The position numbers and the translations under genes are program-made. A model generated the notes under the pieces. The model saw only the letters and a program-made list of their open reading frames with translations. It was not told the DNA's origin and made no database searches. Source: a virus. From it: a stretch of 64,000 nt of DNA. Positions 2,677 to 40,653 of the stretch are shown piece after piece; position 1 is the first letter of the stretch, and each line of letters starts with the position of its first letter. The stretch lies in IMG/VR virus record IMGVR_UViG_3300035698_010959. The stretch is one strand, 5' to 3'.

Positions 2677-3315
2677 TTATACCTTATCTAGACAGCAATT
2701 TTTATATTTTTTTCCAGAGCCACAAGTACATAGCTCATTTCTACCAGGTTTAGGAGGTGTTGCTTTATTACCTTTATCATTTGTGTATAGAGTTTCTATA
2801 TCAAATGGTGGAGCACAAAAAGCATCACTATATGCTGCTGCTTCTAAAGCTAAAGTTATTCTAGCTTTTGGTTCCATTCCTTCTGTAGAAAACATACTTC
2901 CTAAAGCGTAAGATTCTCCACTACCTAATGCAACATAAGGTATGAGGCTTTCTGTAACTTGATAATCACTATAGACTGTATATAGTTTATTTTTGTAACC
3001 AATTACAAATGCATGTCCTGTTTCTTTAGTATTGTCTATAACTACACAACCAGCTTCTTTGAAGCACTTTCTTATAGCATCTATAAAAGTTGTTGTCATA
3101 TAAGCAATATCAGATTCTTCTTCTTTTTGTTTTGGCGGCTTAAATCTGTATTTTAATACTTGTGCTGCTCTACAAGAACCTACAGGACCAAATAGAAAAA
3201 GCCCATTAGCAAATACTTTTGGATTTGCTTTTATCATTTGTTTGCTTCCTGTTGATGCTCTATCTCCTCCTACGTATATTATATTATTTTCTACTAATCC
3301 TACAATTACAGTCAT
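2677..3315 (-). CDS. HslV/proteasome-beta-like Ntn protease with C-terminal SEC-C motif
   Basis: N-terminal M-T (Thr nucleophile) VIVG..GGDR, K at NPKV, ALGSG motif; C-terminal GRNELCTCGSGKKYKNCC. Confidence 0.85.
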   Translation of the reverse strand: MTVIVGLVENNIIYVGGDRASTGSKQMIKANPKVFANGLFLFGPVGSCRAAQVLKYRFKPPKQKEEESDIAYMTTTFIDAIRKCFKEAGCVVIDNTKETGHAFVIGYKNKLYTVYSDYQVTESLIPYVALGSGESYALGSMFSTEGMEPKARITLALEAAAYSDAFCAPPFDIETLYTNDKGNKATPPKPGRNELCTCGSGKKYKNCCLDKV

Positions 3316-3348
3316 TTAAACAATCTATCCTTTTCTTTCTATAATGTT

Positions 3349-3423
3349 TGGTGGAAGCGAAGAGACTCGAACTCTTTTTTCATGCGTGCAAAGCAAACGT
3401 TCTCCCAATTGAACTACGCCCCC
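3349..3423 (-). tRNA. tRNA-Ala(TGC)
   Basis: GGGGGCG/CGCTTCC acceptor with the G3:U70 Ala identity pair, TT-TGC-AC loop, TTCGAGT T-loop, ACCA end. Confidence 0.92.
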
Positions 3424-3435
3424 ATTTCTATTATC

Positions 3436-3464
3436 AATATACCATTGTATTATAGAGATGTCAA
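3436..3464 (-). promoter_or_regulatory. sigma70/sigmaA-type promoter upstream of tRNA-Ala
   Basis: TTGACA-17 nt-TATATT with TGn extended -10. Confidence 0.75.
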
Positions 3465-3466
3465 GT

Positions 3467-3718
3467 CTATTTCCTCATGATGTCAGGAAAGCGTTTAATG
3501 TCTTCTGGTTTAACATAGTGTTTTCCATCTTTAGCAAATACCCAGATTTCACTAACATCTCTTTTTTTAAGTGGAAGAATATCATCTGGATCGACTGCTT
3601 TGCGTATACGCTCTTTGTTTATTCTTCTAAGTTTTCTATTTGCTATTCGTTTATCCCACTTTTCACTGTCACTGCATGTTATTCCGCAAAATGGCCGTTT
3701 CTTTCTTGATCTACTCAT
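3467..3718 (-). CDS. small basic hypothetical protein
   Basis: MSRSRKK..SEKWDKRIANRKLRR..W.F.KDGK; typical small basic phage protein. Confidence 0.75.
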   Translation of the reverse strand: MSRSRKKRPFCGITCSDSEKWDKRIANRKLRRINKERIRKAVDPDDILPLKKRDVSEIWVFAKDGKHYVKPEDIKRFPDIMRK

Positions 3719-3732
3719 TATATATTATCTAC

Positions 3733-3924
3733 CTATATTGTAAAATGTATATGCATTTCTGCTGGATTTATTTGTTGAGCTTTTTTTAGTTCAGCTATGT
3801 GTTCTTTTGCTTGCGCAACTGCGCGTAGCATTGCTTCTTGTCCTTCTTTACTTTCTGTCCAAGCTGCTACTTTCTTTGCTAATATAGTCCATTTTTTAGT
3901 AGGCTTTAGTGTTGAGTTGCTCAT
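3733..3924 (-). CDS. hypothetical protein
   Basis: ATG at 3924 directly follows the upstream stop (TAAAATG). Confidence 0.6.
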   Translation of the reverse strand: MSNSTLKPTKKWTILAKKVAAWTESKEGQEAMLRAVAQAKEHIAELKKAQQINPAEMHIHFTI

Positions 3925-3925
3925 T

Positions 3926-4147
3926 TTATTTGTATATTTCTTGCTCATCAAGTAGTGTATATAATGGAAGTAATTCTGCATATTGCTTATCTGCGATAGT
4001 GGCTGTAGTTAGTTTTTTATCTCTTGTGCTTTGAGCGTGTCCTCTTACGTGTTTTCCTTGTAAGAATTCACGATTACAATACCAACACCATAACCCACAT
4101 CCTTTATTTCTTACTTTTGTTGGAGGTTTTCTGTATGTTCTACTCAC
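3926..4147 (-). CDS. small basic Cys-containing protein
   Basis: GTG start after GAGGA; MSRTYRK..CGLWCWYC. Confidence 0.6.
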   Translation of the reverse strand: MSRTYRKPPTKVRNKGCGLWCWYCNREFLQGKHVRGHAQSTRDKKLTTATIADKQYAELLPLYTLLDEQEIYK

Positions 4148-4165
4148 AATCTTTCCTCATTCTGC

Positions 4166-5152
4166 TTATATTATACTATATATCTTCTTATTTGTAAAGT
4201 ATTGTATTGTATTAAAGAGCCCTTCTGCCATAGTTATTTCTGGTTTCCAATCTAATAGTTTAATTGCTCGTGCTATTTTTGGGCATCTTCTTGTTGGATC
4301 TTCTGGTTTTTCTTTTATATGGTTTATCTCTCCTTTACCCATTAGGCTTATTATTCTAGTGGCAATTTCTCTTATTGATAATACTTCGTTTGGATTTCCT
4401 ATGTTTATTGGCTCATGTATATTAGAAAAGAATAGTTTATATATTCCTTTTACTGTGTCATCTACATAACAAAAGCTTCTGGTTTGTAGCCCATCTCCAT
4501 GTATTGTTAGAGGCTTGTCTTCTAATATTTGATTTATAAAGTTTGGCAGTACTCTACCATCGTTTGCTTTCATCCTTGGGCCATAGGTGTTAAACAGCCT
4601 TGCTATTGCTGTATTAAGTCCTACTGTTCTTAAGAATGTTACTGTTGCTGCTTCTGCAAATCGTTTGGCTTCTGAGTATTGGCTTCGTGGCCCAATTGGA
4701 TTTATGTTACCAAAGTATGTTTCATCTTGTGGATGTTGTAATGGATTTCCATATATTTCAGATGTGGATGTTAATAAAAACCTTGAATTGTCCTTATCAT
4801 TTTTTAGTTTTCTATCTAATAAATAATGTAATATTTCTAACGTACATATAGAATTTGCGTGAAGAGTTTGTATTGGATAGGTTTCATATCCAACTGGGCT
4901 TGCTGGTGAAGCCAAGTGAAGCACTCCAATAAGAGTTTTTATATTTAAACCAGTAAGTAGTTTTTTTGTTATTTGGTCATTTATAAATGTATAATTTTTG
5001 TTTGACTCTAAGTGTTTTGTATTCTCTTTGCTTCCTGTTATAAGTGTATCTATGTTTGTAACTTTATATCCATCATCTAATAATTTTTCACATAGATGAG
5101 ATCCTATAAATCCAGATCCTCCTGTTACAATTATATCACCTTTGTGTGACAT
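4166..5152 (-). CDS. UDP-glucuronate decarboxylase (UDP-xylose synthase)-like NAD-dependent epimerase/dehydratase
   Basis: TGGSGFIG, HLASPASP, TSTSEIYG, YFGNINPIGPRSQYSEAKR (YxxxK), FNTYGPRM..DGRV, TRSFCYVDD; GGAGG RBS before ATG 5152. Confidence 0.92.
   Translation of the reverse strand: MSHKGDIIVTGGSGFIGSHLCEKLLDDGYKVTNIDTLITGSKENTKHLESNKNYTFINDQITKKLLTGLNIKTLIGVLHLASPASPVGYETYPIQTLHANSICTLEILHYLLDRKLKNDKDNSRFLLTSTSEIYGNPLQHPQDETYFGNINPIGPRSQYSEAKRFAEAATVTFLRTVGLNTAIARLFNTYGPRMKANDGRVLPNFINQILEDKPLTIHGDGLQTRSFCYVDDTVKGIYKLFFSNIHEPINIGNPNEVLSIREIATRIISLMGKGEINHIKEKPEDPTRRCPKIARAIKLLDWKPEITMAEGLFNTIQYFTNKKIYSII
4170..4198 (-). promoter_or_regulatory. sigma70-type promoter overlapping the end of the epimerase gene
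   Basis: TTTACA-17 nt-TATAAT. Confidence 0.6.
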
Positions 5153-5169
5153 TTGTATATCCTCCATGT

Positions 5170-5808
5170 TTAATTTGTGTAAAGCTTTTGAGCTTCAGCA
5201 AATATATTTAGTCCAGTATCGGTTAGTGGATGCTTAGGCATTAATTCAAGCATTTTATATGGCATTGTTACAATATCACAACCACATGCAAATAAATCTG
5301 CTATGGGTTGGGGTGTTCTAATTGATGCTGCAATAATTTTTGTATCTACGTTTTGAGTAGTGAATGTATTTTTTATTGATTTTACGAGCTCTAGACCGTT
5401 TGAATTAATATCATCTAGTCTACCGACAAAAGGAGCTACAAATTCTGCACCTACAATACTTGCTAGTATTGCTTGGTTTAGACTAAATACTAGCGTTAGA
5501 GTAACACGTATTCCTTCAGAAGATAGTATCTTACATGCGGCAAGTCCGTTTGATGTCATAGGAAGTTTTACTACTATGTTTTGTGCAAGGCTAGTAAGAT
5601 CTTTAGCTTCTTGTATAAGATCTTCAGAAACAGCCTCAACTAGTATAGTTAGATTTGGATCTATAGCAACTATGTCATAGATACACTGAGTAAGACTTTT
5701 GTTCTCGTGAGATATTATTGAAGGGTTTGTAGTAATACCACTTATACATCCAAACGCCATACCTTTTTTTATTTCTTCTGTATTTGCTGTATCAAGATAT
5801 ATTTTCAT
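5170..5808 (-). CDS. tal: transaldolase / fructose-6-phosphate aldolase family (TalC-type)
   Basis: YLDTA, GITTNPS, VVKLP (Schiff-base Lys), TLVFS..QA, APFVGRLDD, AASIR. Confidence 0.93.
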   Translation of the reverse strand: MKIYLDTANTEEIKKGMAFGCISGITTNPSIISHENKSLTQCIYDIVAIDPNLTILVEAVSEDLIQEAKDLTSLAQNIVVKLPMTSNGLAACKILSSEGIRVTLTLVFSLNQAILASIVGAEFVAPFVGRLDDINSNGLELVKSIKNTFTTQNVDTKIIAASIRTPQPIADLFACGCDIVTMPYKMLELMPKHPLTDTGLNIFAEAQKLYTN

Positions 5809-5996
5809 TAATAATGTCCTTTGATTGTTATTGTAGTTGGTATGTCTATTTTTCGTTCAACTAATATTTTATTACAATGTGGACATCTTTCTTCTGGAGT
5901 TACATGTAGAGTAACTTTCTTATAAGCAAATGGACTATAGATAGTTTCTTCTATTGTTGTAGAGTTAGAGTTATTGTTTGCTGTAGTGGTTAGCAT
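5808..5996 (-). CDS. small protein with CPHC knuckle
   Basis: TAATG translational coupling on both sides; ERCPHC. Confidence 0.65.
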   Translation of the reverse strand: MLTTTANNNSNSTTIEETIYSPFAYKKVTLHVTPEERCPHCNKILVERKIDIPTTITIKGHY

Positions 5997-6457
5997 TAGT
6001 GTATTATCTTTGCTATTTCTTCAATGTCTTGGCGCATTACTGGCTCTATTTCTATTACTAGTTTTGTTGAGGCTCTTTCTGCTACTGTCAATTCTCGTGT
6101 ACTATCGTGCTCTGTTGTTACATTAGTTATTGATTCTCCAAGAGTCATAACAAGTTCTACAATTAATTTTATGGTATTTTCTGGTATGGTTAGGTTTAAC
6201 CATCTAGAAGCCATAATTACAATGTAGCATGATATCTTATCTCTTACTGCGTCATACTCTGTTACCTCTTTTTGTGCTTGGATATATGCTGCTAATAAAC
6301 TATCCCATCCAAGTATATCTATCCATAGTTCTACTGATTTTGATAGGTTTTCTATTCTGCTTAATATATATTTTTTTACTATCCAGGTTAGCCCACCAAT
6401 ACTTCCTAATATTCCAAGTAACCATAAGCTTCCTTCTAATGAAAATGCGAGTTCCAT
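5996..6457 (-). CDS. single-pass membrane protein, possible LL-H-type holin
   Basis: N-terminal TM (LWLLGILGSIGGLTWIV) followed by a helical domain; AAGGAG RBS. Confidence 0.5.
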   Translation of the reverse strand: MELAFSLEGSLWLLGILGSIGGLTWIVKKYILSRIENLSKSVELWIDILGWDSLLAAYIQAQKEVTEYDAVRDKISCYIVIMASRWLNLTIPENTIKLIVELVMTLGESITNVTTEHDSTRELTVAERASTKLVIEIEPVMRQDIEEIAKIIH

Positions 6458-6510
6458 ATTGGTTTATCTCCTTTGTTTTACAACTGTATTATAACTATAC
6501 TATAAAAAAG

Positions 6511-6585
6511 TGGTGGTCAAAGAGAGAATCGAACTCTCAATTTCTTCCATGTAAAAGAAGCGCCCTACCATTGAGCTATTTGACC
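6511..6585 (-). tRNA. tRNA-Val(TAC)
   Basis: GGTCAAA/TTTGACC acceptor, CTTCT-TT-TAC-AT-GGAAG, GAGAG-TTCGATT-CTCTC, ACCA. Confidence 0.95.
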
Positions 6586-6710
6586 GATGTTATCTTTTTC
6601 TATAATCTTTTTTAGATTATGATTAAGATAAGAGTTATAGACTATTTGGTTTTGAGATAGTCTAGTTTTAATTTCTTTTGTTTTGCTATATTTAAATTAG
6701 CTAGTTTATG

Positions 6711-7424
6711 CTATATGTGTACATCTGTTATTGGATAAACTGTAGTGTTAAAGTATGAGGTATAAGCATAGTCGTGGTAATTTTTTGGATAAGATATATT
6801 TGGTATAGATTTATATATAGCTATATACTTTGTTATTCCTTTTTCCATATCTTCTTCTTTGTAGTAAGGTTCTAGTTTCATAGTATCTACCATATTTTCT
6901 ACTATGTTTCCATCTTGTTTATAGCCTTTTGTAGTTGATAGTCTTATTTTAATTTGTATCATCTCATTTTCAAAAGATTCTATGGACCAAGGGCTGTGTA
7001 TTATTATATAATGTTTTGGTTTTCCAATAAGTATAAGTGGAGAAAAAGCCATTATTGAATTAATTGGAGTGATTTGACCTTCTTCTTTTTTCCACATAGC
7101 TTTTAGTGAGTTTGTTCCACAGCTAAGTCTTTCTATAAACTCTATTAAAAATCTGTTTAAACTACCATTGTCTAACATTTCTTTTTTGGATATCAATGCT
7201 CCATATGTTTCTTTTTTTAGCATAAATTGAGAGGTAGGATGAGGGTGTGATGGTAAGTTAATTGAATAAGAGTGTTGCCAAGTATCTGCTGATACAGGCT
7301 CTATTGTTGTAGGAATTATTACAACTTTGTTACCTACTGACGTATTTAGAATATAAGGTTTTTCATTAATTACCTTAGTATAATTGAATATAGCTTCATT
7401 TGTGTAGTCTATGGTTGTATTCAT
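6711..7424 (-). CDS. hypothetical protein
   Basis: 237-aa ORF coupled to the upstream gene (TAGTAATG). Confidence 0.7.
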   Translation of the reverse strand: MNTTIDYTNEAIFNYTKVINEKPYILNTSVGNKVVIIPTTIEPVSADTWQHSYSINLPSHPHPTSQFMLKKETYGALISKKEMLDNGSLNRFLIEFIERLSCGTNSLKAMWKKEEGQITPINSIMAFSPLILIGKPKHYIIIHSPWSIESFENEMIQIKIRLSTTKGYKQDGNIVENMVDTMKLEPYYKEEDMEKGITKYIAIYKSIPNISYPKNYHDYAYTSYFNTTVYPITDVHI

Positions 7425-7426
7425 TA

Positions 7427-7885
7427 CTATATTATATGCTCTTGCTTTAGTTTTACTTCTAGCATTCTTTGATATGTACTTGTTAGTATTTCTTGAAATA
7501 TACTATTTCTAAAGTTCTTTTTTGTTCCAAAAGGAATATAAGATACATCCATAAATCCAGCTGCTGCTAAGTGTTGTCCCATACTTACTGATGCTGGATA
7601 ATTTAGAGAATGTATTATAAACTCTACTTTTAGATTTTCTGGTGTATAGTTATTTACTATATACTTTACTACAGTTGTTCCGCAGTTTTCATCTTCAGTT
7701 GAAACATAGACTCTACCTCCGAGGTCATGGTCAAGATATATTGTACTCCATTCTTTTTTTGGTAGTATATCTATACATTCTTGAGCAGTCTTTACCCATG
7801 TAGCATTTGGATATTGTTTTAAGAATATATCCCCTCTTGTTACATCATCATCTAGAAATAAAATAGAGTTACTAGTTGTATTCAT
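7427..7885 (-). CDS. cyclic-phosphate-processing receiver (cREC)-like domain protein
   Basis: LFLDDD, IYLDHDLGG, G..VVKYI, IIHSLN pattern of stand-alone phage receiver domains; AGGAGG RBS. Confidence 0.75.
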   Translation of the reverse strand: MNTTSNSILFLDDDVTRGDIFLKQYPNATWVKTAQECIDILPKKEWSTIYLDHDLGGRVYVSTEDENCGTTVVKYIVNNYTPENLKVEFIIHSLNYPASVSMGQHLAAAGFMDVSYIPFGTKKNFRNSIFQEILTSTYQRMLEVKLKQEHII

Positions 7886-7939
7886 TAGTCTTTATTATCC
7901 TCCTTCTTTCTATATTATAGTATATTTCTATAATTTTTT

Positions 7940-8260
7940 CTAGTAAATAATATCCATTTTAGAGCTTGCTTGTACTACAGATATGTTTGCAAATGAGTTT
8001 GCGTTTATTTTTATTTCTTGGTCTAACTTAATATCTATTATTGTTGCAGATGAATGATAGACAGTAATACACCCCCGTGAGTCTTTAAATCCTTTTTTTG
8101 TTGCTGTATAGTTATATGTACCTGGCTCCATTTCTATTATTGGAGCATTTCCTCTTATTCCTGTTGTTAATAGATTTGATGCACATTGTATTGTTATATT
8201 ATCTATAGGTGTTCCATTGTTATCATGTGCTGAAAAGAAACAATATCCAATATCTAACAT
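7940..8260 (-). CDS. carboxypeptidase-regulatory/PEGA-like beta-sandwich protein
   Basis: DNNGTPI..G.A..EMEPGTYNYTATKKGF pattern; AAGGAG RBS before ATG 8260. Confidence 0.6.
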   Translation of the reverse strand: MLDIGYCFFSAHDNNGTPIDNITIQCASNLLTTGIRGNAPIIEMEPGTYNYTATKKGFKDSRGCITVYHSSATIIDIKLDQEIKINANSFANISVVQASSKMDIIY

Positions 8261-8273
8261 TTTTTGCTCCTTC

Positions 8274-8426
8274 TTATACAATTCTATCTTTGCCTTTAGG
8301 TTTAGATAGAAATTTTCTATAGTTACAATGCTTACACATATATGTTTGTAGATACACATTGTAACCTATGTTGTTACCACATTTAGGACACAATATTGGT
8401 TGTGGGTAGGAGGATGTATTATTCAT
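8274..8426 (-). CDS. 50-aa zinc-ribbon microprotein (absent from ORF track)
   Basis: Manual translation MNNTSSYPQPILCPKCGNNIGYNVYLQTYMCKHCNYRKFLSKPKGKDRIV*; two CxxC; overlaps the upstream stop. Confidence 0.8.
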   Translation of the reverse strand: MNNTSSYPQPILCPKCGNNIGYNVYLQTYMCKHCNYRKFLSKPKGKDRIV

Positions 8427-8730
8427 GTAGTTTTTCTTTTAGACTATCTAGTGTGGTTTTTCTTGTTACATTTGCTGTATGTGTTATAGTTCCTCCTTTT
8501 AGTAATACTTTTGACCAACTTACTACACTGAAGTTTTTTATTGTATATACTATTATATTTTTACATTTATTAGCAGCTATGTCGATTTTTATATTATCCC
8601 ACATACCTTCTATTGCTCTATTTAATTGGTGTTCTGTTATTATGTGAATATTAGTATTCCTCCTGTATGTGGTGGAAGTGTTACAGTATTTCCTGAGTCC
8701 CAGGTTCCTGTTCCGTATGCGTCTCTGCAA
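8419..8730 (-). CDS. hypothetical protein (true start uncertain, probably near 8643-8600)
   Basis: Fills the gap between the 843-aa gene and the Zn-ribbon; annotated start overlaps the upstream gene by 90 nt. Confidence 0.45.
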   Translation of the reverse strand: MQRRIRNRNLGLRKYCNTSTTYRRNTNIHIITEHQLNRAIEGMWDNIKIDIAANKCKNIIVYTIKNFSVVSWSKVLLKGGTITHTANVTRKTTLDSLKEKLHE

Positions 8731-11171
8731 TCGTTAGTAGCTGTCCATGTTTTATTTGTAGCATAACTATTTGCTAAGACAATTCCATTTGTGGCTGTTC
8801 GTTTTTGGAAAGCGTCTTTCCCTTCAGTTACTGCTACTGCTGTTGATGTCCAGGTTCCTAGACTTGCTAAAGGCGTATAGTCTAAGTAAATTGTTTCCGA
8901 GTTGGTTCCTGGTATATATTTTGCCATTCCAAGACTTGTATATGCGTTTTCTCCAAGTAGATAGCTTGCTAATCCAAAATATGCCCAACCTTGTTTTGGG
9001 TAGTTTGGATTATCTGCAACTATTGCTGGGTCTATGGCTGGATCCTTCAGTTTTACATACATATTTAAATACTGTGGACGTGTATTTGTTTCATTCCATT
9101 GCTCAATTGTGTGCATATCATTGATACAATCTACCCAATATCCAGAGGCATAGCTTCCACTAACTACTGTATTTGATGTTGTTGCTATAGTAATTGCTGT
9201 TGCTGTTGTTGTTATTAAATCAAGATTGTGTGCTGGAAGTGCTGTAAAACTTACCTCTGTTCCACCATTTACATAGTTTAAACTTTCTAGGTATGGGTAG
9301 TTCATAATAAACCCATTTTCCATGGCAGAGTATATTGATAGAGCTATTGCGTCATCATCTTGTGATGTTGGTATCATTTCAAAAAACCCACCAGATGCTC
9401 CTGTTCCATCAGTAAATTCACACTTATATACACTAGGTATATCTCCAATATCTAGGTAAATTTTATCTCCTGTTCCATCATTATTTGAGCCTAGAGTTAC
9501 TGTACCATTTACTGAAAAACTTGCTGAGTCAACTACAGCATAGTTACTAAATGCAATTTCATTTGATGTTCCATCTGTTGAGTTGTCTGCTGTATTGGCT
9601 GTATATCCGTCTGATGCTGGGTATGTTGCTGTTGGTACCCAGTTTTGTTTGACTAATAGTTCATCTGTTGAACTAACATCTGATATGTTTTCACCATAAG
9701 CATTTCTCCAAACATAATAACCAAGAGCATGTGCTGAGGTACATAGTGATTTTATCATGTTTTGTGTCATCCACGCCAGTCTTTCTGGCTGTAATATAAG
9801 GCCAGAAGAAGTATATTCTGTTAATACGGTAGTATCATCTACAAACATATACGTATAGGTATGACGTTGTAGTTTTTCTAATATTGGAGGTATGGATGCG
9901 TTTATGTATTCACTATTATCAAAGTTTGTGTAATAACTAGTTGGATATGATCCGAAATAAACAAAACCAGATACACCAAGCCCTCCCGATATTAACCATT
10001 CTGGATTGTTATTTGCTACATCATAGAAACCTAATGTATTAGGCATAGCTGGTAAATTATCGTTTTCAGCGTCTATTAAAGCTTGTGCTGTTGCTATTAT
10101 TACTCTTCCTGGTGTAATATACATCATATATTTACAATTTGGATTATAGTAATTTAGTCTTTGTTTTTTAGTGTCTTGTCCAATGGAGGAAAAAGCCATA
10201 AATGAACTATTTAGTGATGCTTGTTTATAGATATCAATGCAAGCTGAAGTAAAGCTTGCAATATTATATGGAGATCCATTCCCAGTAGATGGTATATTTA
10301 CCATTATTCTACTTCCATCACGTACTACATATACATGTATGTTATCTATATATATTCCAAAATCTGCTGTGGACGGCGTTGTCCCTGAATAGCTAATATA
10401 AGTACTTGCATATATTGGTAAGGGGTTAGTTGTTCCTGTAATAGTAAGTGTAGTTGACAGTGATTGTGTCTCTGTAGAAGTTATATCTGCATAAGCATAT
10501 TCTGAGGTTTGATTATCGGCAGGTAAGGTAGCTAGGGTAGCTAGTCTTATATATATCTTTGGATCTATTATTCCTGGTATATTTTCTAGATTTTCAGAAA
10601 TCTTTAAATGATCAACTACAAGTTCTAGTGTATCATCTCTTCCACACCATGTTGGATATGCGGTACTAGCAGTATTTGATAGATTTGTTATTAGTGTACC
10701 ATAGGGTAAAACTAGCCCTATCCAACTACTACCTGTTGTTGCTCCAGTTATACCAAAGTATTGTGCAACTGTTCCACTTACACCTTCTCCATCTGCTAAT
10801 TGGTATTTTATGTTTCCAGTTGGGTGTATAGTGGCACTTGAACGTCTACACCATCCAACTCCAGTTTCATCTGTTGTTCCAGATAATACAAATCCACAAT
10901 TTAGTTGTGCAATATCGTCAGACATTGGATATGTCCATATTTCTTTTGGATTTGCTGTATAGTCAAGCCCTGTAACTGGATCTGTTACTATGTTTGTATA
11001 GTAAGATGTCCAGTCTACATATGTACCTGCTACTGTAAAATTTCCAATTCCTCCTAATAAATCTAAAGGTACTTGTGCTGTTGTTGTAGCAGTAGGAAGA
11101 GTTTCTCCAACATCTTGTCCTAGAGTTATATTTATATGTGTTGGTATATTTGGATAAGTATAGCTTGTCAT
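8640..11171 (-). CDS. large Thr-rich protein, putative glycoside-hydrolase-like (GHL15-like) virion or adsorption protein
   Basis: C-terminus YFGLASYLLG..LG..FQKRTATNGIVLAN..VTLPPHTGGIL resembles the GHL15-type tail; beta-rich N-terminal region. Confidence 0.5.
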   Translation of the reverse strand: MTSYTYPNIPTHINITLGQDVGETLPTATTTAQVPLDLLGGIGNFTVAGTYVDWTSYYTNIVTDPVTGLDYTANPKEIWTYPMSDDIAQLNCGFVLSGTTDETGVGWCRRSSATIHPTGNIKYQLADGEGVSGTVAQYFGITGATTGSSWIGLVLPYGTLITNLSNTASTAYPTWCGRDDTLELVVDHLKISENLENIPGIIDPKIYIRLATLATLPADNQTSEYAYADITSTETQSLSTTLTITGTTNPLPIYASTYISYSGTTPSTADFGIYIDNIHVYVVRDGSRIMVNIPSTGNGSPYNIASFTSACIDIYKQASLNSSFMAFSSIGQDTKKQRLNYYNPNCKYMMYITPGRVIIATAQALIDAENDNLPAMPNTLGFYDVANNNPEWLISGGLGVSGFVYFGSYPTSYYTNFDNSEYINASIPPILEKLQRHTYTYMFVDDTTVLTEYTSSGLILQPERLAWMTQNMIKSLCTSAHALGYYVWRNAYGENISDVSSTDELLVKQNWVPTATYPASDGYTANTADNSTDGTSNEIAFSNYAVVDSASFSVNGTVTLGSNNDGTGDKIYLDIGDIPSVYKCEFTDGTGASGGFFEMIPTSQDDDAIALSIYSAMENGFIMNYPYLESLNYVNGGTEVSFTALPAHNLDLITTTATAITIATTSNTVVSGSYASGYWVDCINDMHTIEQWNETNTRPQYLNMYVKLKDPAIDPAIVADNPNYPKQGWAYFGLASYLLGENAYTSLGMAKYIPGTNSETIYLDYTPLASLGTWTSTAVAVTEGKDAFQKRTATNGIVLANSYATNKTWTATNDCRDAYGTGTWDSGNTVTLPPHTGGILIFT

Positions 11172-11228
11172 TATATGTATGTAATCCTGTAGAGGTAGGT
11201 AGATGTGTCGTGCGTGTCATGTGGAAGA

Positions 11229-11304
11229 TGGCTCCTCGACCTGGAATCGAACCAGGACTACCTCGATTAACAGTCGAGTGCTTTGCCAATTAAGCTATCG
11301 AGGA
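11229..11304 (-). tRNA. tRNA-Asn(GTT)
   Basis: TCCTCGA/TCGAGGA acceptor, CTCGA-CT-GTT-AA-TCGAG, CCTGG-TTCGATT-CCAGG, GCCA. Confidence 0.96.
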
Positions 11305-11337
11305 GCGCGTATATCTTTATTATGGAGAATGGATGGT

Positions 11338-11940
11338 TTATATAGCTTTGTTTAGCATTGCTGCTATTTCTTTAGCTCTTAAATACTCTGTTACAGTTGT
11401 AGCTGCTTCTTGTGCTACTTGTAGATTTATCATGATAAATCCAGCTATAATTGGAGTATTTCCCTTCTTCATGAAGCCACCATTTGGTGTTTTATCTGCT
11501 TCAAATATCTCTAATGAAAACTGTATAGCAGGTCCTATACGAAGAGGATTACCATCCTTATCTTTATCCTTGTATTCTATTTTTAGAGTTCTAGAAATAA
11601 ATGGTATGTCTGGTTGTTTTACTGCCGCGCCTGTTCCTCCTCCAAAATTTTCTAATACTATTCCTTGCTTTAATGTGCCATTTAACATCTTATGAAAAAA
11701 TGCTCTAGCTTTTGCTATAGGTAAAAAGTGCTGTATATGTTTTGATGGTTTATTACCACTTGGATCATATTCAGTTAAACTTAGTACAAGCTTTCCTTCA
11801 CTTAGTTCATCTTTGGTTAATTCAAATTCTCCAAGATGTGAGAAATCCATTACTCTTCCAGCAGATTTACTTTGTGTATTTACTTTAGTAATTACTGTTC
11901 TTCGTTGTTGCTGTTGTGGTTGTTCTTGATTATTTGACAT
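11338..11940 (-). CDS. hypothetical protein
   Basis: ATG 11940 after GAAGGA; lies downstream of the promoter at 12030-12058. Confidence 0.75.
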   Translation of the reverse strand: MSNNQEQPQQQQRRTVITKVNTQSKSAGRVMDFSHLGEFELTKDELSEGKLVLSLTEYDPSGNKPSKHIQHFLPIAKARAFFHKMLNGTLKQGIVLENFGGGTGAAVKQPDIPFISRTLKIEYKDKDKDGNPLRIGPAIQFSLEIFEADKTPNGGFMKKGNTPIIAGFIMINLQVAQEAATTVTEYLRAKEIAAMLNKAI

Positions 11941-12029
11941 GGTTTCTTTTCCTTCTAAATGGATTTCCTTTTTTAATTGGAAATACATTCTAATATTTGT
12001 CAGGCTATTAGATGCCTTTACTATTATAT

Positions 12030-12058
12030 ATTATAGCATATTTTATCATTTTTTTCAA
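12030..12058 (-). promoter_or_regulatory. sigma70-type promoter at the structural/accessory boundary
   Basis: TTGAAA-17 nt-TATAAT with TGC extended -10 and A-rich UP-like region. Confidence 0.75.
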
Positions 12059-12075
12059 GTTTTTTATTTGTCAAA

Positions 12076-13191: not shown

Positions 13192-13192
13192 A

Positions 13193-13429: not shown

Positions 13430-13440
13430 TTGATGTTTTC

Positions 13441-15630: not shown

Positions 15631-15637
15631 AATAATC

Positions 15638-17689: not shown

Positions 17690-17693
17690 ATAC

Positions 17694-26962: not shown

Positions 26963-26966
26963 TTGT

Positions 26967-29240: not shown

Positions 29241-29264
29241 GATATGTGGTTAATCTCCTACGCG

Positions 29265-33290: not shown

Positions 33291-33296
33291 ATGTTG

Positions 33297-35222: not shown

Positions 35223-35231
35223 ATAGTTTTA

Positions 35232-36701: not shown

Positions 36702-36706
36702 TTATA

Positions 36707-37015
36707 TTAGCAATCCTCTGATAAATTTTCTTCTGTTGGCTCTTCGTTGTTGTGAGTACGGTCATACCCATACTCTGTTGTAATTTTATCTAGATAGAGA
36801 TATGGTAAAAGTGCAATTAGCAGGACAATCAGGTGTGCGTATACTTCTGATTGTGTTACGGCGGTAAATAAACATATGCCTAGTGTGGCAACAAACGCTA
36901 CTCTAGATATTGATAGCTTTTGCGTATCTGGCTTATAGAGGAGGTCTGTTAGTAGTTTTCGTATCCATGTAAACATTGTTGTTGGGTTTTTCCATATCTT
37001 GTCCTCCCAACACAT
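36707..37015 (-). CDS. small two-TM membrane protein, holin candidate
   Basis: KLSISRVAFVATLGICLFTAV and LIVLLIALLPYLYL helices, acidic C-terminal tail. Confidence 0.55.
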   Translation of the reverse strand: MCWEDKIWKNPTTMFTWIRKLLTDLLYKPDTQKLSISRVAFVATLGICLFTAVTQSEVYAHLIVLLIALLPYLYLDKITTEYGYDRTHNNEEPTEENLSEDC

Positions 37016-37025
37016 TATTTAGTAA

Positions 37026-38135
37026 TTATGTAACATCTAAACTTCGTGCGTAAAATTTAGAGCCTGCTGTTGCTGTTAGGTCTACATTTAATGCTGTATT
37101 GTTGCTTACTGCCATTCGTATTTGTGTGTTTGTAATATCTGGGTGAGCATCCATTACTCTTGAAACAAGTTCATTATATATCATATTACCAAGTGTAGAT
37201 TTATTATCTCCTACTGGTAGATTATCTATATAAGAACGTGCTGCTACAGATGCTTGTGATCGCGCAAGTGTGGCATTAAGTTGTGTTCCTAATGCTACTT
37301 TTATTGTAAGGTCTATTGGTATTTCAATAGGGGCTTTTGCTGTTGCGGATATTCCATAAGCCACTACTTTATCTAATGTATCTTGTACTTGCTCTAATAG
37401 AGCTGCTGTTACTCTTCTATCTACTGATATAACTACAACATCTAACGTTCCTGTACCTCTTGCCATTGGTTGAAGTATTACATCTTTAACTCCAGGTAAT
37501 TCAAGTAATGATATTCTTATTGATGTTTCATTTGCTCCTTGTACTGTTAGCAAGGAGTTAGATATCCTATATCTGTAGTTATCATCTGATTCTACATCAG
37601 TACCTGTACTAATTGGTAATATGTTTGTTACTGTTATGTTTGTACTACCTATATCATTAGATGTTAGTGCTTGTGGTCCAACATTATATTGTGGCCCTTC
37701 ATATACAGCAGTAACATCTACATAGGATTCTCCTCCGCTTTGAACAGTTATTACATAGTCTGTAGTGTAAGATATTCGTTGATTGCTTGATGACCATACT
37801 CGTGTACTTTTTGGTATTGTAGCAACTTCATCACCTATATTACGAAATAGAACTGCGTTTCCTGCTCCTGCGGTTGTTGCTGCTTTGGCTGGAAGACGTG
37901 TTACTCCAAATAGTTGTCCTATTTTATCAAGATTTGAGCCTGCCGCTGTTGATAGATTGCCTTGTTCATCAAGCTGTGCCAACATATCATATAGGTCTTG
38001 TATGTAGGCAACAAATACTTTTAGCATAGACCCAGCTATAGATGATTCTGAGAAGTTGGTTATGCCTGTTTTTTCTTTTACTGCTTGTATAGCATAGGAT
38101 AGCAGTTCATCATATGTTGGTGTAGCTAATGCCAT
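37026..38135 (-). CDS. baseplate J-like protein
   Basis: TNFSESSIAG..L.TA.G..LDKIG..FGVTR..A, GTDVESDDNYRYRI, GTGTLDVVV. Confidence 0.93.
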   Translation of the reverse strand: MALATPTYDELLSYAIQAVKEKTGITNFSESSIAGSMLKVFVAYIQDLYDMLAQLDEQGNLSTAAGSNLDKIGQLFGVTRLPAKAATTAGAGNAVLFRNIGDEVATIPKSTRVWSSSNQRISYTTDYVITVQSGGESYVDVTAVYEGPQYNVGPQALTSNDIGSTNITVTNILPISTGTDVESDDNYRYRISNSLLTVQGANETSIRISLLELPGVKDVILQPMARGTGTLDVVVISVDRRVTAALLEQVQDTLDKVVAYGISATAKAPIEIPIDLTIKVALGTQLNATLARSQASVAARSYIDNLPVGDNKSTLGNMIYNELVSRVMDAHPDITNTQIRMAVSNNTALNVDLTATAGSKFYARSLDVT

Positions 38136-38139
38136 GTTG

Positions 38140-38448
38140 TTAGTTTTCTTTCTTCCTCCAGAATGTGTCTTCTGTTAAGTAATCTTCTGTGTCATTTATA
38201 AGTGTGTATGTAGCTTTAGAGGCTTTACTATATGTTCTTGGAAAACTTACTGGAGTTATATGTCTACACTCGTTACAATGTATTAACCAAGTATTATTTG
38301 TATGAGGTTCTGTATTTGGAAAGTAGGAGATGTTACCACAGTACTTACATATAACTTTATAACCATCTGTATATTCTGGAGGAATCCACATTCCTCTTGA
38401 AAAATCAGAGTTATTCCATTGGTTCTTTTTATTTTTGTGTATAGACAT
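38140..38448 (-). CDS. zinc-ribbon protein
   Basis: CKYC and CNEC pairs. Confidence 0.7.
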   Translation of the reverse strand: MSIHKNKKNQWNNSDFSRGMWIPPEYTDGYKVICKYCGNISYFPNTEPHTNNTWLIHCNECRHITPVSFPRTYSKASKATYTLINDTEDYLTEDTFWRKKEN

Positions 38449-38459
38449 TTTGATATTTT

Positions 38460-38924
38460 TTAGTTAGCTATTACAGATATTTGTGCGTCTATTGATTCTT
38501 GTTCATAGAGAATAATATCAGTAGAATTTAAAATTAGGCTACCTGATTGGTCTAAAACAGTTACCGGTATTCCAGCTATTATTGCTGAATCTTGTATATA
38601 TGAGCAATTGGCTGGTAATAAAAATAATATCTTACTAATTCGGTTAGGTATAACAACAGGTAAAGTTGTTTCTGCTGTTACTTCTTTAAGGTTGTCATAT
38701 TCATCTGTCCATGTTATTGAAGTAGTTATCTCTATTGGTGGTCTTGGAACTGAATTATTTTTTGTGGTAGATGTAATAGTTACTTGCTCTCCTGGTTTTA
38801 TAACTGGTTTTGAGCTTTTTACATCTACAGTTAATTCAGCACAAGCACAAAGTGGAGTACCTAACTGTAGTATAAATAATGGTATAGAGCAGCCCATTAT
38901 TATGCTCTTTATAAGCTTTTTCAT
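38460..38924 (-). CDS. exported Ig-like (DUF11-like) protein
   Basis: Signal peptide MKKLIK..PLCACA; SSKPVIKPGEQVTIT..N, LPANCSYI..S. Confidence 0.6.
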   Translation of the reverse strand: MKKLIKSIIMGCSIPLFILQLGTPLCACAELTVDVKSSKPVIKPGEQVTITSTTKNNSVPRPPIEITTSITWTDEYDNLKEVTAETTLPVVIPNRISKILFLLPANCSYIQDSAIIAGIPVTVLDQSGSLILNSTDIILYEQESIDAQISVIAN

Positions 38925-38945
38925 TTGTGTTTCCTTTAATAATAG

Positions 38946-39275
38946 TTAGTTGTTTATTTCATCTTCTTCATAAGTATCTATGTCTTGAGAATTAACAGTT
39001 GTTTTCTCTATGGAAACTTTGGTTTCTATGTTTGGTTGATTACTTTCTGTAATAGATACTATTTTGTTTAATTCTTTTTTATTGTAGATTCTACTATCTA
39101 CTCTTCTTAATATTGTTAAGAGATCTGTTGGATTTGAATGTATGAGTTGTATTTTTTCTATTACTGTTTCTTTGGTTGTTGTTGTATCTGCTATAAGTAT
39201 TGTCTCATTACATCTAGCAGCAGGAGCTAATACTATTATGAATACAACTAAAAGCTTTAATAGTTTTGAGAGCAT
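38946..39275 (-). CDS. exported/lipoprotein, possible single secretin N-domain (NolW-like) repeat
   Basis: Signal peptide ending PAARC; VIEKIQLIHSNPTDLLTIL; AAGGAG RBS. Confidence 0.5.
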   Translation of the reverse strand: MLSKLLKLLVVFIIVLAPAARCNETILIADTTTTKETVIEKIQLIHSNPTDLLTILRRVDSRIYNKKELNKIVSITESNQPNIETKVSIEKTTVNSQDIDTYEEDEINN

Positions 39276-39343
39276 ATAAGATTATTTCTCCTTGTTGTTT
39301 AAGTAATCATCGTGAAACTGTATTATATCTTTATTATGTTGTT

Positions 39344-39485
39344 TTATCCATGTCTGCTAAGATGTTTACGTCTCCATTCGTCAGTCAATTCTACGTTATC
39401 TGGAATGTTAAGGCGTTTTTTTTATCTTTGCTTGTATTTTTTTTACTATGGAATCTGTAATTTTTGTATGTGTATTTGTTGTCAT
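39344..39485 (-). pseudogene. small ORF broken by a frameshift in an A8 run
   Basis: ATG 39485 gives 25 aa; removing one A at 39416-39423 gives MTTNTHTKITDSIVKKIQAKIKKRLNIPDNVELTDEWRRKHLSRHG*. Confidence 0.4.
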
Positions 39486-39492
39486 AATAATA

Positions 39493-40653
39493 TTAGCTCC
39501 AGGCGGGGTAACAACACTGTTTGTACTTTTTACCACTGCCACAAGGACAAGGAGAGTTACGACCAATTTCGGTATTTACTACTGGGCCTGGGCCTACATC
39601 TCCTATTGAAGCATTATATCGTATTGCTTCCCAAGTATCTGCCCACTTACCTATATTCTTTGCGTAGTCGTGGTGTTCTCTTACTTTGGTTTGTGCTGCT
39701 TCTCCCATTTCTCTACGCTTTGTTTCGTCTTCAATAAGTATAGATAGTTTCTCTATCCATTCTGGTGTTGTGTTTGCTGTGTATCCATCTACTCCTTGGT
39801 CTATATAGCGCTGATAAGGAGCAACTTTACTTGCTACATAAGGTATACCCCAGCTACCCATCTCCATTAATTTAAGTGGACTTTTTGCTCTATTAAATGT
39901 AGTGTTTGCTATTGGCGCTACACCTATATCGAAGTGGCTTAATACTTGTGGGTATACATCTATTGGAGCATCTTTTATAAGTATTATACGGTCTACTATT
40001 TCTGAAGGAACATTCCAAGATTCTATTGCTTGCTCTGCCAACATCTTGTTAGTACAAATTCCAAACTTTATATGCTTGTATTTTGTTAGAATTCCTTTAA
40101 CAATTTCTCCAAGAATAGGCATATCTCGCTGGTGTGTCGTTCCCCCAGACCATCCTACTGTAAGGTCTGGATCTCTATTTGTTACTCTCGTAGTCCAATC
40201 TCTTATATCAAAATCTATTGCGTTTGGTACTACGAATGTATTTCTATTAAGATGTAGATATTCAGCAGCCAGCTCTGGTGTAGATACTGTTAGCCCATGA
40301 GATTCTGCTATCATTTCATGTGCTTTTTTTAGTTCTTTTGTTCCTTGATGATATACTCTATATGCTGGTGAGTCTATGTGTACTGCGTTTAGTGCGTCAT
40401 CAACTTCATATATTATTGTTATACCGGTATCTTTTAAATGTTTTAAAGAGTCTACTACATTTTCGTTATATTGCCGCTGTGCTATTATATAATCTGCCCA
40501 TTGTAGTTCAGCAAAATTTACTTTTGTTACTACCTGTGTTGTTGCTCCAAGTTTTGCTAAATAATCAAGTGGATATTGAATTCGTAATAAACCACATGCT
40601 GTTTCATCAGCTCTAAATCCTACTACTTTTAGTCCCGAAAAGTTCTTTCTCAA
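39493..40653 (-). CDS. GT-B glycosyltransferase (GT4-like) with C-terminal SEC-C motif
   Basis: CGLLRIQYP, YEVDD, VSTPELA, VPNAID, VGWSGGTTH..D, DIGVAP..FNRAKSPLKLMEMG..GIP.VAS; GRNSPCPCGSGKKYKQCC; TTG start after GGGAGG. Confidence 0.9.
   Translation of the reverse strand: MRKNFSGLKVVGFRADETACGLLRIQYPLDYLAKLGATTQVVTKVNFAELQWADYIIAQRQYNENVVDSLKHLKDTGITIIYEVDDALNAVHIDSPAYRVYHQGTKELKKAHEMIAESHGLTVSTPELAAEYLHLNRNTFVVPNAIDFDIRDWTTRVTNRDPDLTVGWSGGTTHQRDMPILGEIVKGILTKYKHIKFGICTNKMLAEQAIESWNVPSEIVDRIILIKDAPIDVYPQVLSHFDIGVAPIANTTFNRAKSPLKLMEMGSWGIPYVASKVAPYQRYIDQGVDGYTANTTPEWIEKLSILIEDETKRREMGEAAQTKVREHHDYAKNIGKWADTWEAIRYNASIGDVGPGPVVNTEIGRNSPCPCGSGKKYKQCCYPAWS

What the first reader, a model, noticed from the sequence alone, without database searches (positions are those of the whole stretch)
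2692..39564. The same SEC-C metal-binding tag appended to two unrelated phage enzymes
Seen: GRNELCTCGSGKKYKNCC (2692-2745) ends the HslV-like protease and GRNSPCPCGSGKKYKQCC (39511-39564) ends the GT4 glycosyltransferase, 37 kb apart. Each follows a Pro-containing linker, and the codons have diverged, so this is not a recent duplication. Established: SEC-C is the SecA C-terminal metal-binding motif that contacts SecB and has been linked to ribosome binding. Inference: the phage uses it as a shared docking tag, sending a protease and a glycosyltransferase to one place (SecB, ribosome, nascent exported proteins) to remodel host export or modify proteins co-translationally.
Basis: partly seen in the sequence, partly recalled or inferred. 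Interest (0 to 1): 0.7.

Follow-up and report, generated by a model that had tools for sequence, protein, structure and literature searches.

The report
SecA-type zinc tag on two phage enzymes
An uncultured salt-lake phage of about 226 kb ends two unrelated enzymes (a sugar-transferring enzyme in its baseplate operon and a proteasome-like protease) with the small metal-binding tag that SecA uses to bind ribosomes and SecB; the two fusions arose separately and probably act as address labels, but that is not proven.

Summary
Two true SEC-C (PF02810) tails lie at the stated coordinates on the minus strand, and they are the only two in the 142.8-kb record. One ends a BPH/HslV-like Ntn protease (212 aa). 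The other ends a GT4-fold glycosyltransferase (386 aa).

They are not one shared system:
- GT+SEC-C is old and clade-wide. It has a family-specific CC-x-PAWG ending down to about 30% identity. It sits in the same gp25/GT/J baseplate slot in three related large phages, each of which has it as its only SEC-C protein.
- Protease+SEC-C is rare: 2 of 120 homologues. It is absent from the 98%-complete closest relative. Its tag belongs to a different 'CCL' subtype and is closer to 147 of 285 other tags than to the GT's tag.
- Shared codons are at chance level, so this is not a recent copy.
- Neither fusion occurs in isolated phages. No cellular relative of the tagged GT was detected.

The docking-tag idea gains indirect support. 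In large viral contigs the same tag is most often fused to peptide deformylase (7 of 28), a ribosome-exit-site enzyme. A methionine aminopeptidase family model also begins with the motif.

Two tags in one phage is uncommon: 1 of 28 other large SEC-C-positive records has two.

The host and the binding partner are untested. Earlier scan notes had flagged this GT family on other DNA.

The parts
2677..3315 (-). 212-aa proteasome-beta/BPH/HslV-type Ntn peptidase with a C-terminal SEC-C tail
   Evidence: ORF. phrog_1040, E 2e-21. AF2 model pLDDT 92.5. Foldseek best hit BPH 5ovs, TM 0.78, then HslV. Thr2, Asp18 and Lys33 are invariant in 119-120 of 120 homologues.
2680..2745 (-). SEC-C metal-binding tag of the protease (GRNELCTCGSGKKYKNCC + LDKV), 'CCL' subtype
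   Evidence: PF02810, 36.1 bits. 15 of 18 residues identical to the SecA peptide of PDB 1ozb. Its nearest tag is a small viral ORF in L004, 19 of 22 identical.
2746..2781 (-). Pro/Lys-rich linker between the protease core and the tag (residues about 179-190)
   Evidence: Sequence. pLDDT falls from 94-98 in the core to 83-78 here. Untagged homologues end about 8 residues after the PF motif.
39493..40653 (-). 386-aa GT4-fold (GT-B) glycosyltransferase with a C-terminal SEC-C tail
   Evidence: ORF. Pfam Glyco_trans_1_2 38.2 bits and Glyco_trans_1_4 30.8 bits. phrog_7162, E 6e-50. AF2 pLDDT 92.8. BshA 2jjm Z 29.7 over model residues 7-346.
39496..39564 (-). SEC-C tag of the GT (GRNSPCPCGSGKKYKQCC + YPAWS), family-specific 'CC-x-PAWG' subtype
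   Evidence: PF02810, 36.5 bits. The tail is conserved in nearly all of 36 homologues down to about 30% identity. The PAWG-like ending occurs in 17 of 23 GT-family tags and essentially nowhere else.
39565..39603 (-). Linker (residues about 351-363, contains GPGP), variable in length across the family
   Evidence: Alignment columns about 510-550 of A1 are highly gapped. The pLDDT block covering residues 351-360 is 71, against 95-98 before it and 83-86 after it.
40673..41074 (-). gp25-like baseplate protein; conserved upstream neighbour of the tagged GT
   Evidence: phrog_975 and phrog_25235. Syntenic in L051, L052 and L054.
37026..38135 (-). J/gp6-like baseplate wedge protein; conserved downstream neighbour of the tagged GT
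   Evidence: phrog_6, E 1e-44. Syntenic in L051, L052 and L054.
2600..2675 (-). tRNA-Arg(TCT), ending 1 nt after the protease stop codon (context)
   Evidence: ARAGORN.
3349..3423 (-). tRNA-Ala(TGC), 34 nt upstream of the protease start codon (context)
   Evidence: ARAGORN.

Best explanation
Two independent gene fusions have each put a SecA-type metal-binding domain (SEC-C, CxCx8CC) on a flexible linker at the C-terminus of a different enzyme.

Shown:
- The GT4-fold glycosyltransferase with its tail is an old, vertically inherited gene of a clade of roughly 120-230-kb uncultured phages. It sits in a fixed slot of the baseplate operon, between the gp25-like and J-like genes.
- The tail on the BPH/HslV-like protease is a rare, lineage-specific addition of a different tag subtype.

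Inferred:
- Each tail works as a portable address module that binds what the SecA MBD binds: the acidic surface of the 70S ribosome near the exit tunnel (uL23 region) and, if the host has it, SecB. This would bring the enzyme close to nascent or still-unfolded polypeptides.
- For the GT, which probably belongs to the late operon, this would allow glycosylation of proteins as they emerge, most plausibly phage structural proteins or exported proteins.
- For the ring-forming peptidase, which has no phage-encoded unfoldase in the held DNA, it would supply unfolded substrate that such barrels can otherwise not reach.
- The two enzymes need not act together.
For: - The tags are genuine and keep every consensus position of the SecA MBD.
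- The SecA MBD binds SecB and ribosomes, and it is retained in 52 SecB-less species (PMC6620043; bioRxiv 10.1101/613315).
- The GT tail is under long-term selection. It is present in nearly all homologues from 53% down to about 30% identity, with Cys ligands kept even where the knuckle carries insertions.
- The gp25-GT-J slot is syntenic in L051, L052 and L054.
- In the folds the tail lies outside the GT4 body and follows a lower-confidence linker. The protease model shows the same pattern.
- Independent origin is supported by chance-level codon sharing, by different tag subtypes (147 of 285 tags are closer to the protease tag than its genome-mate's), and by relatives that have only the GT tag and no protease.
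- For ribosome docking, the same tag directly follows the catalytic core of peptide deformylase in 7 of 28 large SEC-C-positive viral records, and that fusion is very abundant in metagenomes.
- The MetAP model NF008970 begins with the motif (profile positions 1-22). The literature notes MetAPs with a SecA-like MBD.
- A retropepsin-like protease with a C-terminal SEC-C exists in another viral contig (L025).
- Four other homologues of the protease carry strongly basic C-terminal tails instead.
- No AAA+ unfoldase is encoded in the held 72% of the genome.
Against: - No binding, localisation or metal content was measured. The mechanism rests on analogy.
- The host is unknown (salt-lake metagenomes), so it is unknown whether SecB exists.
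- The GT tag has a conserved PAWG extension that SecA lacks. That may mean a different, possibly phage-encoded, partner.
- The C-terminal SEC-C of YchJ is reported to act in redox-driven dimerisation and DNA binding (PMC13377102), so the module is functionally plastic.
- In SecA the MBD also has an autoinhibitory role.
- 27 of 28 other large tagged phages carry a single tagged protein, so there is no sign of a multi-enzyme tag system.
- A ribosome-docked protease would also threaten the phage's own nascent proteins.
Confidence: 0.4

Rival explanations
1. One reading: one coordinated system in which the phage sends both the protease and the GT to the same host site (SecB, the ribosome, nascent exported proteins) to remodel export together.
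For: Both tags keep the SecA consensus. Two tags in one phage is uncommon: only 1 of 28 other large SEC-C-positive records has two. Two signal-peptide ORFs lie just downstream of the GT.
Against: The fusions have independent origins and different subtypes. The 98%-complete closest relative has the tagged GT but no protease homologue. The two genes lie in different modules 37 kb apart: a tRNA and nucleotide-metabolism region against the baseplate operon. The signal-peptide ORFs are absent from L051.
Confidence: 0.1
2. The GT tail docks to a phage partner rather than a host one. It would hold the GT on a baseplate or tail assembly intermediate, or in the virion, so that it glycosylates structural proteins in place. 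Under this reading the protease tag is an unrelated case.
For: The gene sits in a fixed slot between gp25-like and J-like baseplate genes in four related phages. The family-specific, conserved PAWG ending is not seen in SecA. In the viral sample, tail and baseplate location occur together, and 74 tail-less distant homologues sit elsewhere.
Against: The SecA-like consensus surface, including the basic KKYK, is fully retained, which a new partner would not require. No baseplate partner has been identified. L053 has the tail without detectable gp25 or J homologues nearby.
Confidence: 0.15
3. The tails are regulatory rather than address modules. They would be a metal- or redox-sensitive switch, or an autoinhibitory or oligomerising element that tunes enzyme activity, as reported for YchJ and for the SecA C-terminal tail.
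For: Cys149/150 in the C-terminal SEC-C of YchJ sense ROS and drive dimerisation. The SecA MBD takes part in autoinhibition and can bind iron. The GT tail knuckle is modelled with fairly high confidence (83-86), which is compatible with a defined position.
Against: The module is fused to either terminus of many unrelated viral proteins through variable linkers. That pattern fits a self-contained binding module better than enzyme-specific regulation. The recurrent fusion to PDF points to the ribosome.
Confidence: 0.15
4. The tails are generic electrostatic anchors: small basic knuckles that hold the enzymes on anionic membranes or nucleic acids, without a specific protein receptor.
For: The tags are Lys/Arg-rich. 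Four homologues of the protease carry plain Lys/Arg-rich tails at the same place. GT4 enzymes such as PimA act at membranes (fold neighbours). From my own knowledge, not checked here, the SecA C-terminus was also reported to bind lipid.
Against: A plain basic tail would do that job. Strict conservation of the four ligands, the Ser and the Tyr over long distances implies a folded, specific surface.
Confidence: 0.1

Closest known systems
C-terminal metal-binding domain (MBD, SEC-C, PF02810) of SecA (PDB 1sx1, 1tm6; SecB complex 1ozb)
   Same: Both share the CxCx8C(C/H) ligand pattern, GRN before the first Cys, the inward Ser (CGSG) and the basic KKYK surface. Both sit at the C-terminus behind a flexible linker. 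The protease tag is 15 of 18 identical to the 1ozb peptide.
   Different: Here the module is attached to a GT4 enzyme and to an Ntn peptidase, not to a translocation ATPase. The fourth ligand is Cys, a variant also seen in some SecA proteins. The GT tag adds a conserved PAWG ending, and the protease tag has a 'CCL' ending that is common in viral tags.
YecA (AscA) and YchJ, non-SecA proteins with C-terminal SecA-like MBDs
   Same: They set the precedent that the MBD is a mobile module on unrelated proteins. The YchJ C-terminal peptide (9l6b_C) is the best PDB sequence hit of the protease tail.
   Different: They are cellular proteins with different body domains (UPF0149, UPF0225). YchJ is reported to be a redox-sensing transcription factor. 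Neither is an enzyme of the kinds found here.
Nascent-chain enzymes carrying the same tag: MetAP with N-terminal SEC-C (NCBIfam NF008970) and viral peptide deformylase with C-terminal SEC-C (L345, L350, L351, L359, L039, L040, L044)
   Same: An enzyme carries the same tag on a short linker. This is the best functional analogy for ribosome docking.
   Different: PDF and MetAP are known ribosome-exit-site enzymes, whereas a GT4 and an HslV-like peptidase are not. No paper describing PDF+SEC-C was found.
BPH (beta-proteobacterial proteasome homologue, PDB 5ovs, 5ovu) and HslV
   Same: The protease shares the Ntn fold (TM 0.78 to BPH). After Met removal its N-terminal residue is Thr. Asp and Lys sit at the catalytic positions, and there is no propeptide.
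   Different: Sequence identity is only 18-21%. The protein does not reach Pfam PF00227. No HslU-like or other AAA+ partner is encoded in the held DNA. It carries the extra SEC-C tail.
GT4 retaining glycosyltransferases (BshA 2jjm/3mbo, MshA 3c4q, PimA, TarM)
   Same: The GT shares the two-Rossmann GT-B fold over residues about 2-350 (Z 26-30) and hits the Pfam GT1-clan families.
   Different: Identity is only 11-17%. The acceptor is unknown. The gene sits in a phage baseplate operon, and the C-terminal SEC-C is absent from all solved relatives.
Phage GTs thought to glycosylate virion proteins (mycobacteriophage examples) and the GtfA/GtfB GT4 pair coupled to the accessory Sec system. Both are recalled from my own knowledge and were not tested here.
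   Same: They are cytoplasmic GT-B enzymes that modify proteins before assembly or export. In some phages the GT genes lie in or beside structural modules.
   Different: None is known to carry a SecA-type tag. The homologous GT of Arthrobacter phage Mimi lies among sugar and RNA-repair genes and has no tail.

Membership tests
SEC-C / SecA metal-binding domain (PF02810) | Score above Pfam's gathering threshold (20.4 bits) | tested here: met
   36.1 bits (protease) and 36.5 bits (GT). 40.2 and 41.6 bits in the genome search.
SEC-C / SecA metal-binding domain (PF02810) | Four metal ligands in the CxCx8C(H/C) pattern | tested here: met
   CTCGSGKKYKNCC and CPCGSGKKYKQCC. The CC variant is described for some SecA proteins.
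SEC-C / SecA metal-binding domain (PF02810) | Conserved structural Ser (SecA Ser889) and Tyr (Tyr893), and the basic surface residues | tested here: met
   CGSG and KKYK are present in both tags. They are nearly invariant in the GT family. The role of Ser889 is given.
SEC-C / SecA metal-binding domain (PF02810) | Binds Zn or Fe | not testable with these tools
   Needs purified protein and metal analysis.
SEC-C / SecA metal-binding domain (PF02810) | Binds SecB and/or the 70S ribosome | not tested
   The host is unknown. Complex prediction was not run: the SecB-MBD pair is solved (1ozb), so a pass would reflect likeness only.
HslV / proteasome beta-type Ntn peptidase (T1) | N-terminal nucleophile Thr directly after the initiator Met, plus Asp17 and Lys33 equivalents | tested here: met
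   Thr2 in 119 of 120, Asp18 in 119 of 120 and Lys33 in 120 of 120 homologues.
HslV / proteasome beta-type Ntn peptidase (T1) | Alpha-beta-beta-alpha Ntn fold | tested here: met
   AF2 pLDDT 92.5. BPH TM 0.78 and HslV TM 0.67-0.74 (normalised by target length), all with probability 1.00.
HslV / proteasome beta-type Ntn peptidase (T1) | Match to Pfam Proteasome (PF00227) | tested here: not met
   No PF00227 hit at E<=0.01 for this protein. Only 2 of 120 homologues carry the precomputed hit. PHROG phrog_1040 'peptidase HslV family' does match, E 2e-21.
HslV / proteasome beta-type Ntn peptidase (T1) | Works with an HslU-type AAA+ unfoldase | tested here: inconclusive
   No AAA_2 or AAA match in the held record. 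That record is only 72% complete, and a host ATPase could serve. BPH also has no known partner (my own knowledge).
GT4-type GT-B glycosyltransferase | Pfam GT1-clan C-terminal domain above threshold | tested here: met
   Glyco_trans_1_2 38.2 bits (cut-off 25) and Glyco_trans_1_4 30.8 bits (cut-off 27). Glycos_transf_1 at 22.6 bits is below its 26.4 cut-off.
GT4-type GT-B glycosyltransferase | Two-Rossmann GT-B fold closest to GT4 structures | tested here: met
   BshA 2jjm Z 29.7, rmsd 2.7 over 316 residues. MshA, PimA and TarM score Z 26-28. The profile hits MshA and BshA by sequence.
GT4-type GT-B glycosyltransferase | EX7E motif of retaining GT4 enzymes | tested here: inconclusive
   Glu264 is invariant and lies in the expected LEY/MEM segment, but the upstream Glu position is not obviously kept. 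This was judged by eye on alignment A1 and no structure-based alignment of the motif was made.

The most novel reading that the evidence does not exclude
Phages use the SecA-type metal-binding knuckle as a general, portable address tag for the ribosome exit site (and SecB), and they hang different enzymes on it. Peptide deformylase is the commonest. In this clade it is a baseplate-operon glycosyltransferase, which would glycosylate proteins co-translationally. In this phage it is also a proteasome-like peptidase, which would gain access to nascent or unfolded chains without an unfoldase.
Probability: 0.3. Interest if true: 0.8.

Novelty: new variant of a known kind. Interest (0 to 1): 0.5.

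Why it matters
If the tails really dock to the ribosome exit site or to SecB, phages would have a simple modular way to bring enzymes to proteins while they are being made. Three consequences would follow. Cytoplasmic co-translational glycosylation by a phage enzyme would be possible. An ATPase-free proteasome-like peptidase would have a route to unfolded substrate. The very abundant environmental peptide deformylase+SEC-C family would have an explanation. It would also bear on the open question of what the conserved SecA MBD does in bacteria that lack SecB. The tag is about 22 residues long and the assays already exist (ribosome co-sedimentation, uL23 crosslinking, SecB pull-down), so the idea is directly testable. 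If the tails are only regulatory or structural, the finding is a modest note on domain shuffling.

Tried and rejected
- A single-protein scan of viral contigs with the GT found nothing. The same scan with the protease returned only SEC-C-motif hits, which I reused as a survey sample.
- The genome-contig scan with the wide alignment failed.
Hits that seemed to extend into the GT C-lobe (L137, L139, L143, L149, L162, L165) proved to be SecA itself. Absence of a cellular GT+SEC-C therefore holds only within that scan.
- The metagenome scan did not recover P0002's contig.
I therefore counted tags per genome on a sample of 28 large records instead of the whole collection.
- No RNA holder was listed among sequencing runs, and read laying was not used.
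- The host was not identified. Shine-Dalgarno-like motifs are enriched upstream of genes, which only suggests an SD-using host.
- Model coordinates are not exposed, so I could not measure whether the tails pack against the enzyme bodies.
- Complex prediction was not used. SecB-MBD is a solved textbook pair, the host's SecB and ribosomal proteins are unknown, and neighbouring baseplate genes alone are not reason enough.
- Intragenomic duplication of the tag was considered and rejected.
- L004's small SEC-C ORF was considered as a split form of the protease and rejected, because L004 matched only the tag residues 189-211 in the scan.
- Sub-threshold Pfam hits for M78-like and transglutaminase-like bodies on other viral SEC-C proteins are not counted as evidence.

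Full report
**1. Observation**

The window is a minus-strand block of a large tailed phage. It holds five tRNA genes, nucleotide- and sugar-metabolism genes, baseplate genes and giant proteins. It is part of an IMG/VR record of 142,839 bp, 35% G+C, which CheckV rates 72% complete. Homologue clusters put the same proteins on a 226-kb contig.

- GRNELCTCGSGKKYKNCC lies at 2692-2745, four residues before the stop of the 212-aa ORF 2677-3315(-).
- GRNSPCPCGSGKKYKQCC lies at 39511-39564, five residues before the stop of the 386-aa ORF 39493-40653(-).
- Both pass Pfam's SEC-C threshold: 36.1 and 36.5 bits against 20.4.
- They are the only two PF02810 matches in the record. A loose regex finds no further candidate in a real ORF.
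- The best PDB sequence hits of the protease tail are the YchJ C-terminal peptide and the SecA peptides of 1ozb and 1sx0.

**2. The two enzymes**

The 212-aa protein matches phrog_1040, 'peptidase HslV family' (E 2e-21).
- Its AlphaFold model is confident (pLDDT 92.5).
- The nearest solved folds are BPH (5ovs, TM 0.78), then HslV and the 20S beta subunits.
- Thr2, Asp18 and Lys33 are kept in 119-120 of 120 homologues, so it looks like an active Ntn peptidase.
- It does not reach Pfam PF00227.
- No AAA+ unfoldase is encoded in the held DNA.

The 386-aa protein passes Glyco_trans_1_2 and Glyco_trans_1_4.
- A profile of the family hits MshA and BshA by sequence.
- Its model has pLDDT 92.8. It aligns with GT4 structures at Z 26-30, always over residues about 2-350 only. 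The tail is therefore an added module.
- It is the only Glyco_trans_1_4-type GT in the record. A GT2 enzyme elsewhere in the record has no tag.

**3. History of the GT fusion**

- Among the homologues, most of those from 53% down to about 30% identity carry PF02810.
- The alignment shows a conserved GRNxPCPCGSGKKYKxCCxPAWG ending after a linker of variable length. The ligands are kept even where the knuckle carries an insertion.
- In 80 GT-family loci from viral contigs, only the four closest have the tail.
- Three of those four (contigs of 211, 122 and 118 kb) sit in the same slot as here. That slot lies between a gp25-like and a J/gp6-like baseplate gene, downstream of the giant protein.
- The 74 more distant complete loci have no tail and no detectable baseplate neighbours.
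- In L054 the gene also holds a LAGLIDADG intein. This confirms a lead from earlier scan notes on another genome.
- In 50,697 isolated phages, GT homologues reach at most about 32% identity and their matches stop before the tail. The Arthrobacter phage Mimi homologue lies among sugar and RNA-repair genes.
- In about 186,000 species genomes the scan found only SecA and similar proteins through the motif, and no full-length relative.
- The GT fusion is therefore old, clade-wide and, as far as sampled, viral.

**4. History of the protease fusion**

- Of 120 homologues, only the query's own cluster and one other protein carry SEC-C. That other protein is P0002, 50-52% identical. Its tail is clearly orthologous but seems to have lost one Cys.
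- Most homologues end about 8 residues after the PF motif.
- Twelve have longer tails, and four of those are strongly basic.
- Homologues in isolated phages (Moorella, Vibrio, Geobacillus, Tenacibaculum and others) all stop before the tag.
- None of the four related large phages has a protease homologue, and each has the GT as its only SEC-C protein. This includes the 98%-complete closest relative.

**5. Are the two tags one tag?**

- They share 14 of 18 residues and 37 of 54 nt. Seven of the 14 identical residues use the same codon, against 8.1 expected from codon usage.
- The GT tag groups with its own family's PAWG subtype, which occurs in 17 of 23 family tags. Outside the family the ending appears only in a relative's own GT, with a similar CCYPQYG ending on one SecA.
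- The protease tag has the 'CCL' ending that is common in viral tags. Its nearest neighbour is a small ORF in L004 (19 of 22 identical). 147 of 285 tags are closer to it than its genome-mate's tag is.
- The fusions are independent.

**6. How unusual, and what else carries the tag**

- The motif is abundant in viral contigs.
- It sits at either terminus of ORFs of 53-829 aa.
- In 28 viral records of 100-376 kb chosen because they hold the motif, 27 have one SEC-C ORF and one has two. A double tag is therefore uncommon but not unique.
- The commonest identifiable body is peptide deformylase, with the tag 7-18 residues after the catalytic core. It occurs in 7 of 28 records.
- That fusion is very abundant in environmental data, Tara Oceans included.
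- I found no paper on it, and the Iyer et al. jumbo-phage survey mentions none of these fusions.
- Other bodies are a retropepsin-like protease (above threshold), NERD, DUF4238 and TPR proteins, and a true SecA.
- The MetAP model NF008970 starts with the motif.

**7. Mechanism**

What is established:
- The SecA MBD binds SecB.
- A SUMO fusion of the SecA C-terminal tail co-sediments with 70S ribosomes and crosslinks to uL23.
- 52 species without SecB keep the MBD (PMC6620043).
- YecA, YchJ and many MetAPs carry the same module (10.1101/613315).

My best reading (confidence about 0.4) is that each tail is a self-contained address module for the ribosome exit region and/or SecB, giving the attached enzyme access to nascent or unfolded chains. 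The PDF and MetAP fusions are the strongest indirect support.

What is shown here is the anatomy, the evolutionary history and the co-occurrence pattern. The partner and the consequence are inferred.

Points against:
- The host is unknown. The DNA comes from salt-lake metagenomes. SD-like motifs are enriched upstream of genes.
- The GT tag's PAWG extension and its baseplate slot may point to a phage partner.
- The C-terminal SEC-C of YchJ is reported to act as a redox switch that helps DNA binding.
- The SecA MBD is also autoinhibitory.

**8. Verdict**

This is a new variant of a known kind: a known mobile module on two enzyme bodies not described with it. One fusion defines a phage clade's baseplate-operon GT; the other is a rare addition.

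Interest is moderate (0.5). The general idea of a phage-borne ribosome/SecB address tag is testable with existing assays and would be notable if true.

Noticed in passing
window 49969-53280 (-): The 1103-aa ORF is a family-A DNA polymerase with a 3'-5' exonuclease domain, interrupted by a LAGLIDADG/Hint intein (Pfam). It lies between giant virion-type proteins rather than in a replication module.
   Followed up: partly
L054:7914-10295 (+) and L052:7893-10118 (+): The orthologous baseplate GT+SEC-C genes of two related phages are 794 and 742 aa long, because of an insertion of about 290-340 aa after the invariant FN-x-AK|S site. In L054 the insert is a LAGLIDADG intein. In L052 the insert gave no Pfam hit.
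   Followed up: partly
L345, L350, L351, L359, L039, L040, L044 (viral contigs of 131-349 kb): Peptide deformylase with a C-terminal SEC-C tag placed 7-18 residues after the catalytic core. It is recurrent in large phages and very abundant in metagenomes, Tara Oceans included. No description of it was found in the searchable literature.
   Followed up: partly
L341, L349, L353, L354, L357 and others: Many large phages encode small proteins of 67-170 aa that pair an N-terminal CxxC...CxxC zinc-ribbon-like start with a C-terminal SEC-C. No Pfam body domain was found in the two that were scanned. They could be decoys or adaptors for the same receptor.
   Followed up: no
window 998-11304 (-): Five tRNA genes (Gly-TCC, Arg-TCT, Ala-TGC, Val-TAC, Asn-GTT) are interspersed with protein genes. 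The tagged protease is wedged between tRNA-Arg (1 nt after its stop codon) and tRNA-Ala.
   Followed up: no
window 1169-1984 (-): One 271-aa ORF combines a dATP/dGTP-pyrophosphohydrolase-like N-terminal part (phrog_801) with an HNH endonuclease C-terminal part (phrog_59).
   Followed up: no
window 38140-39275 (-): Three small ORFs lie between the GT and the J-like gene: two with signal-peptide or lipoprotein-like N-termini (109 and 154 aa) and one Cys-rich zinc-ribbon-like ORF (102 aa). None has a PHROG match. They are absent from the closest relative L051, where the J-like gene follows the GT directly.
   Followed up: partly
P0002 (214 aa): The only other tagged protease ends ...CPCGSGKKYKKTRCLGKA. 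Only three Cys are visible in the knuckle, so its metal site may be degenerate or differently spaced.
   Followed up: no
G027 (184-kb viral record; L357 and L362): This is the only other large viral record in the sample with two SEC-C ORFs (167 and 120 aa). Their body domains are unknown: one was scanned against Pfam with no body hit, the other was not scanned.
   Followed up: no
window 4166-5808 (-): A nucleotide-sugar epimerase (phrog_540) and a transaldolase (phrog_440) lie just upstream of the protease region. They adjoin the large sugar-biosynthesis cluster that earlier notes place before the window.
   Followed up: no
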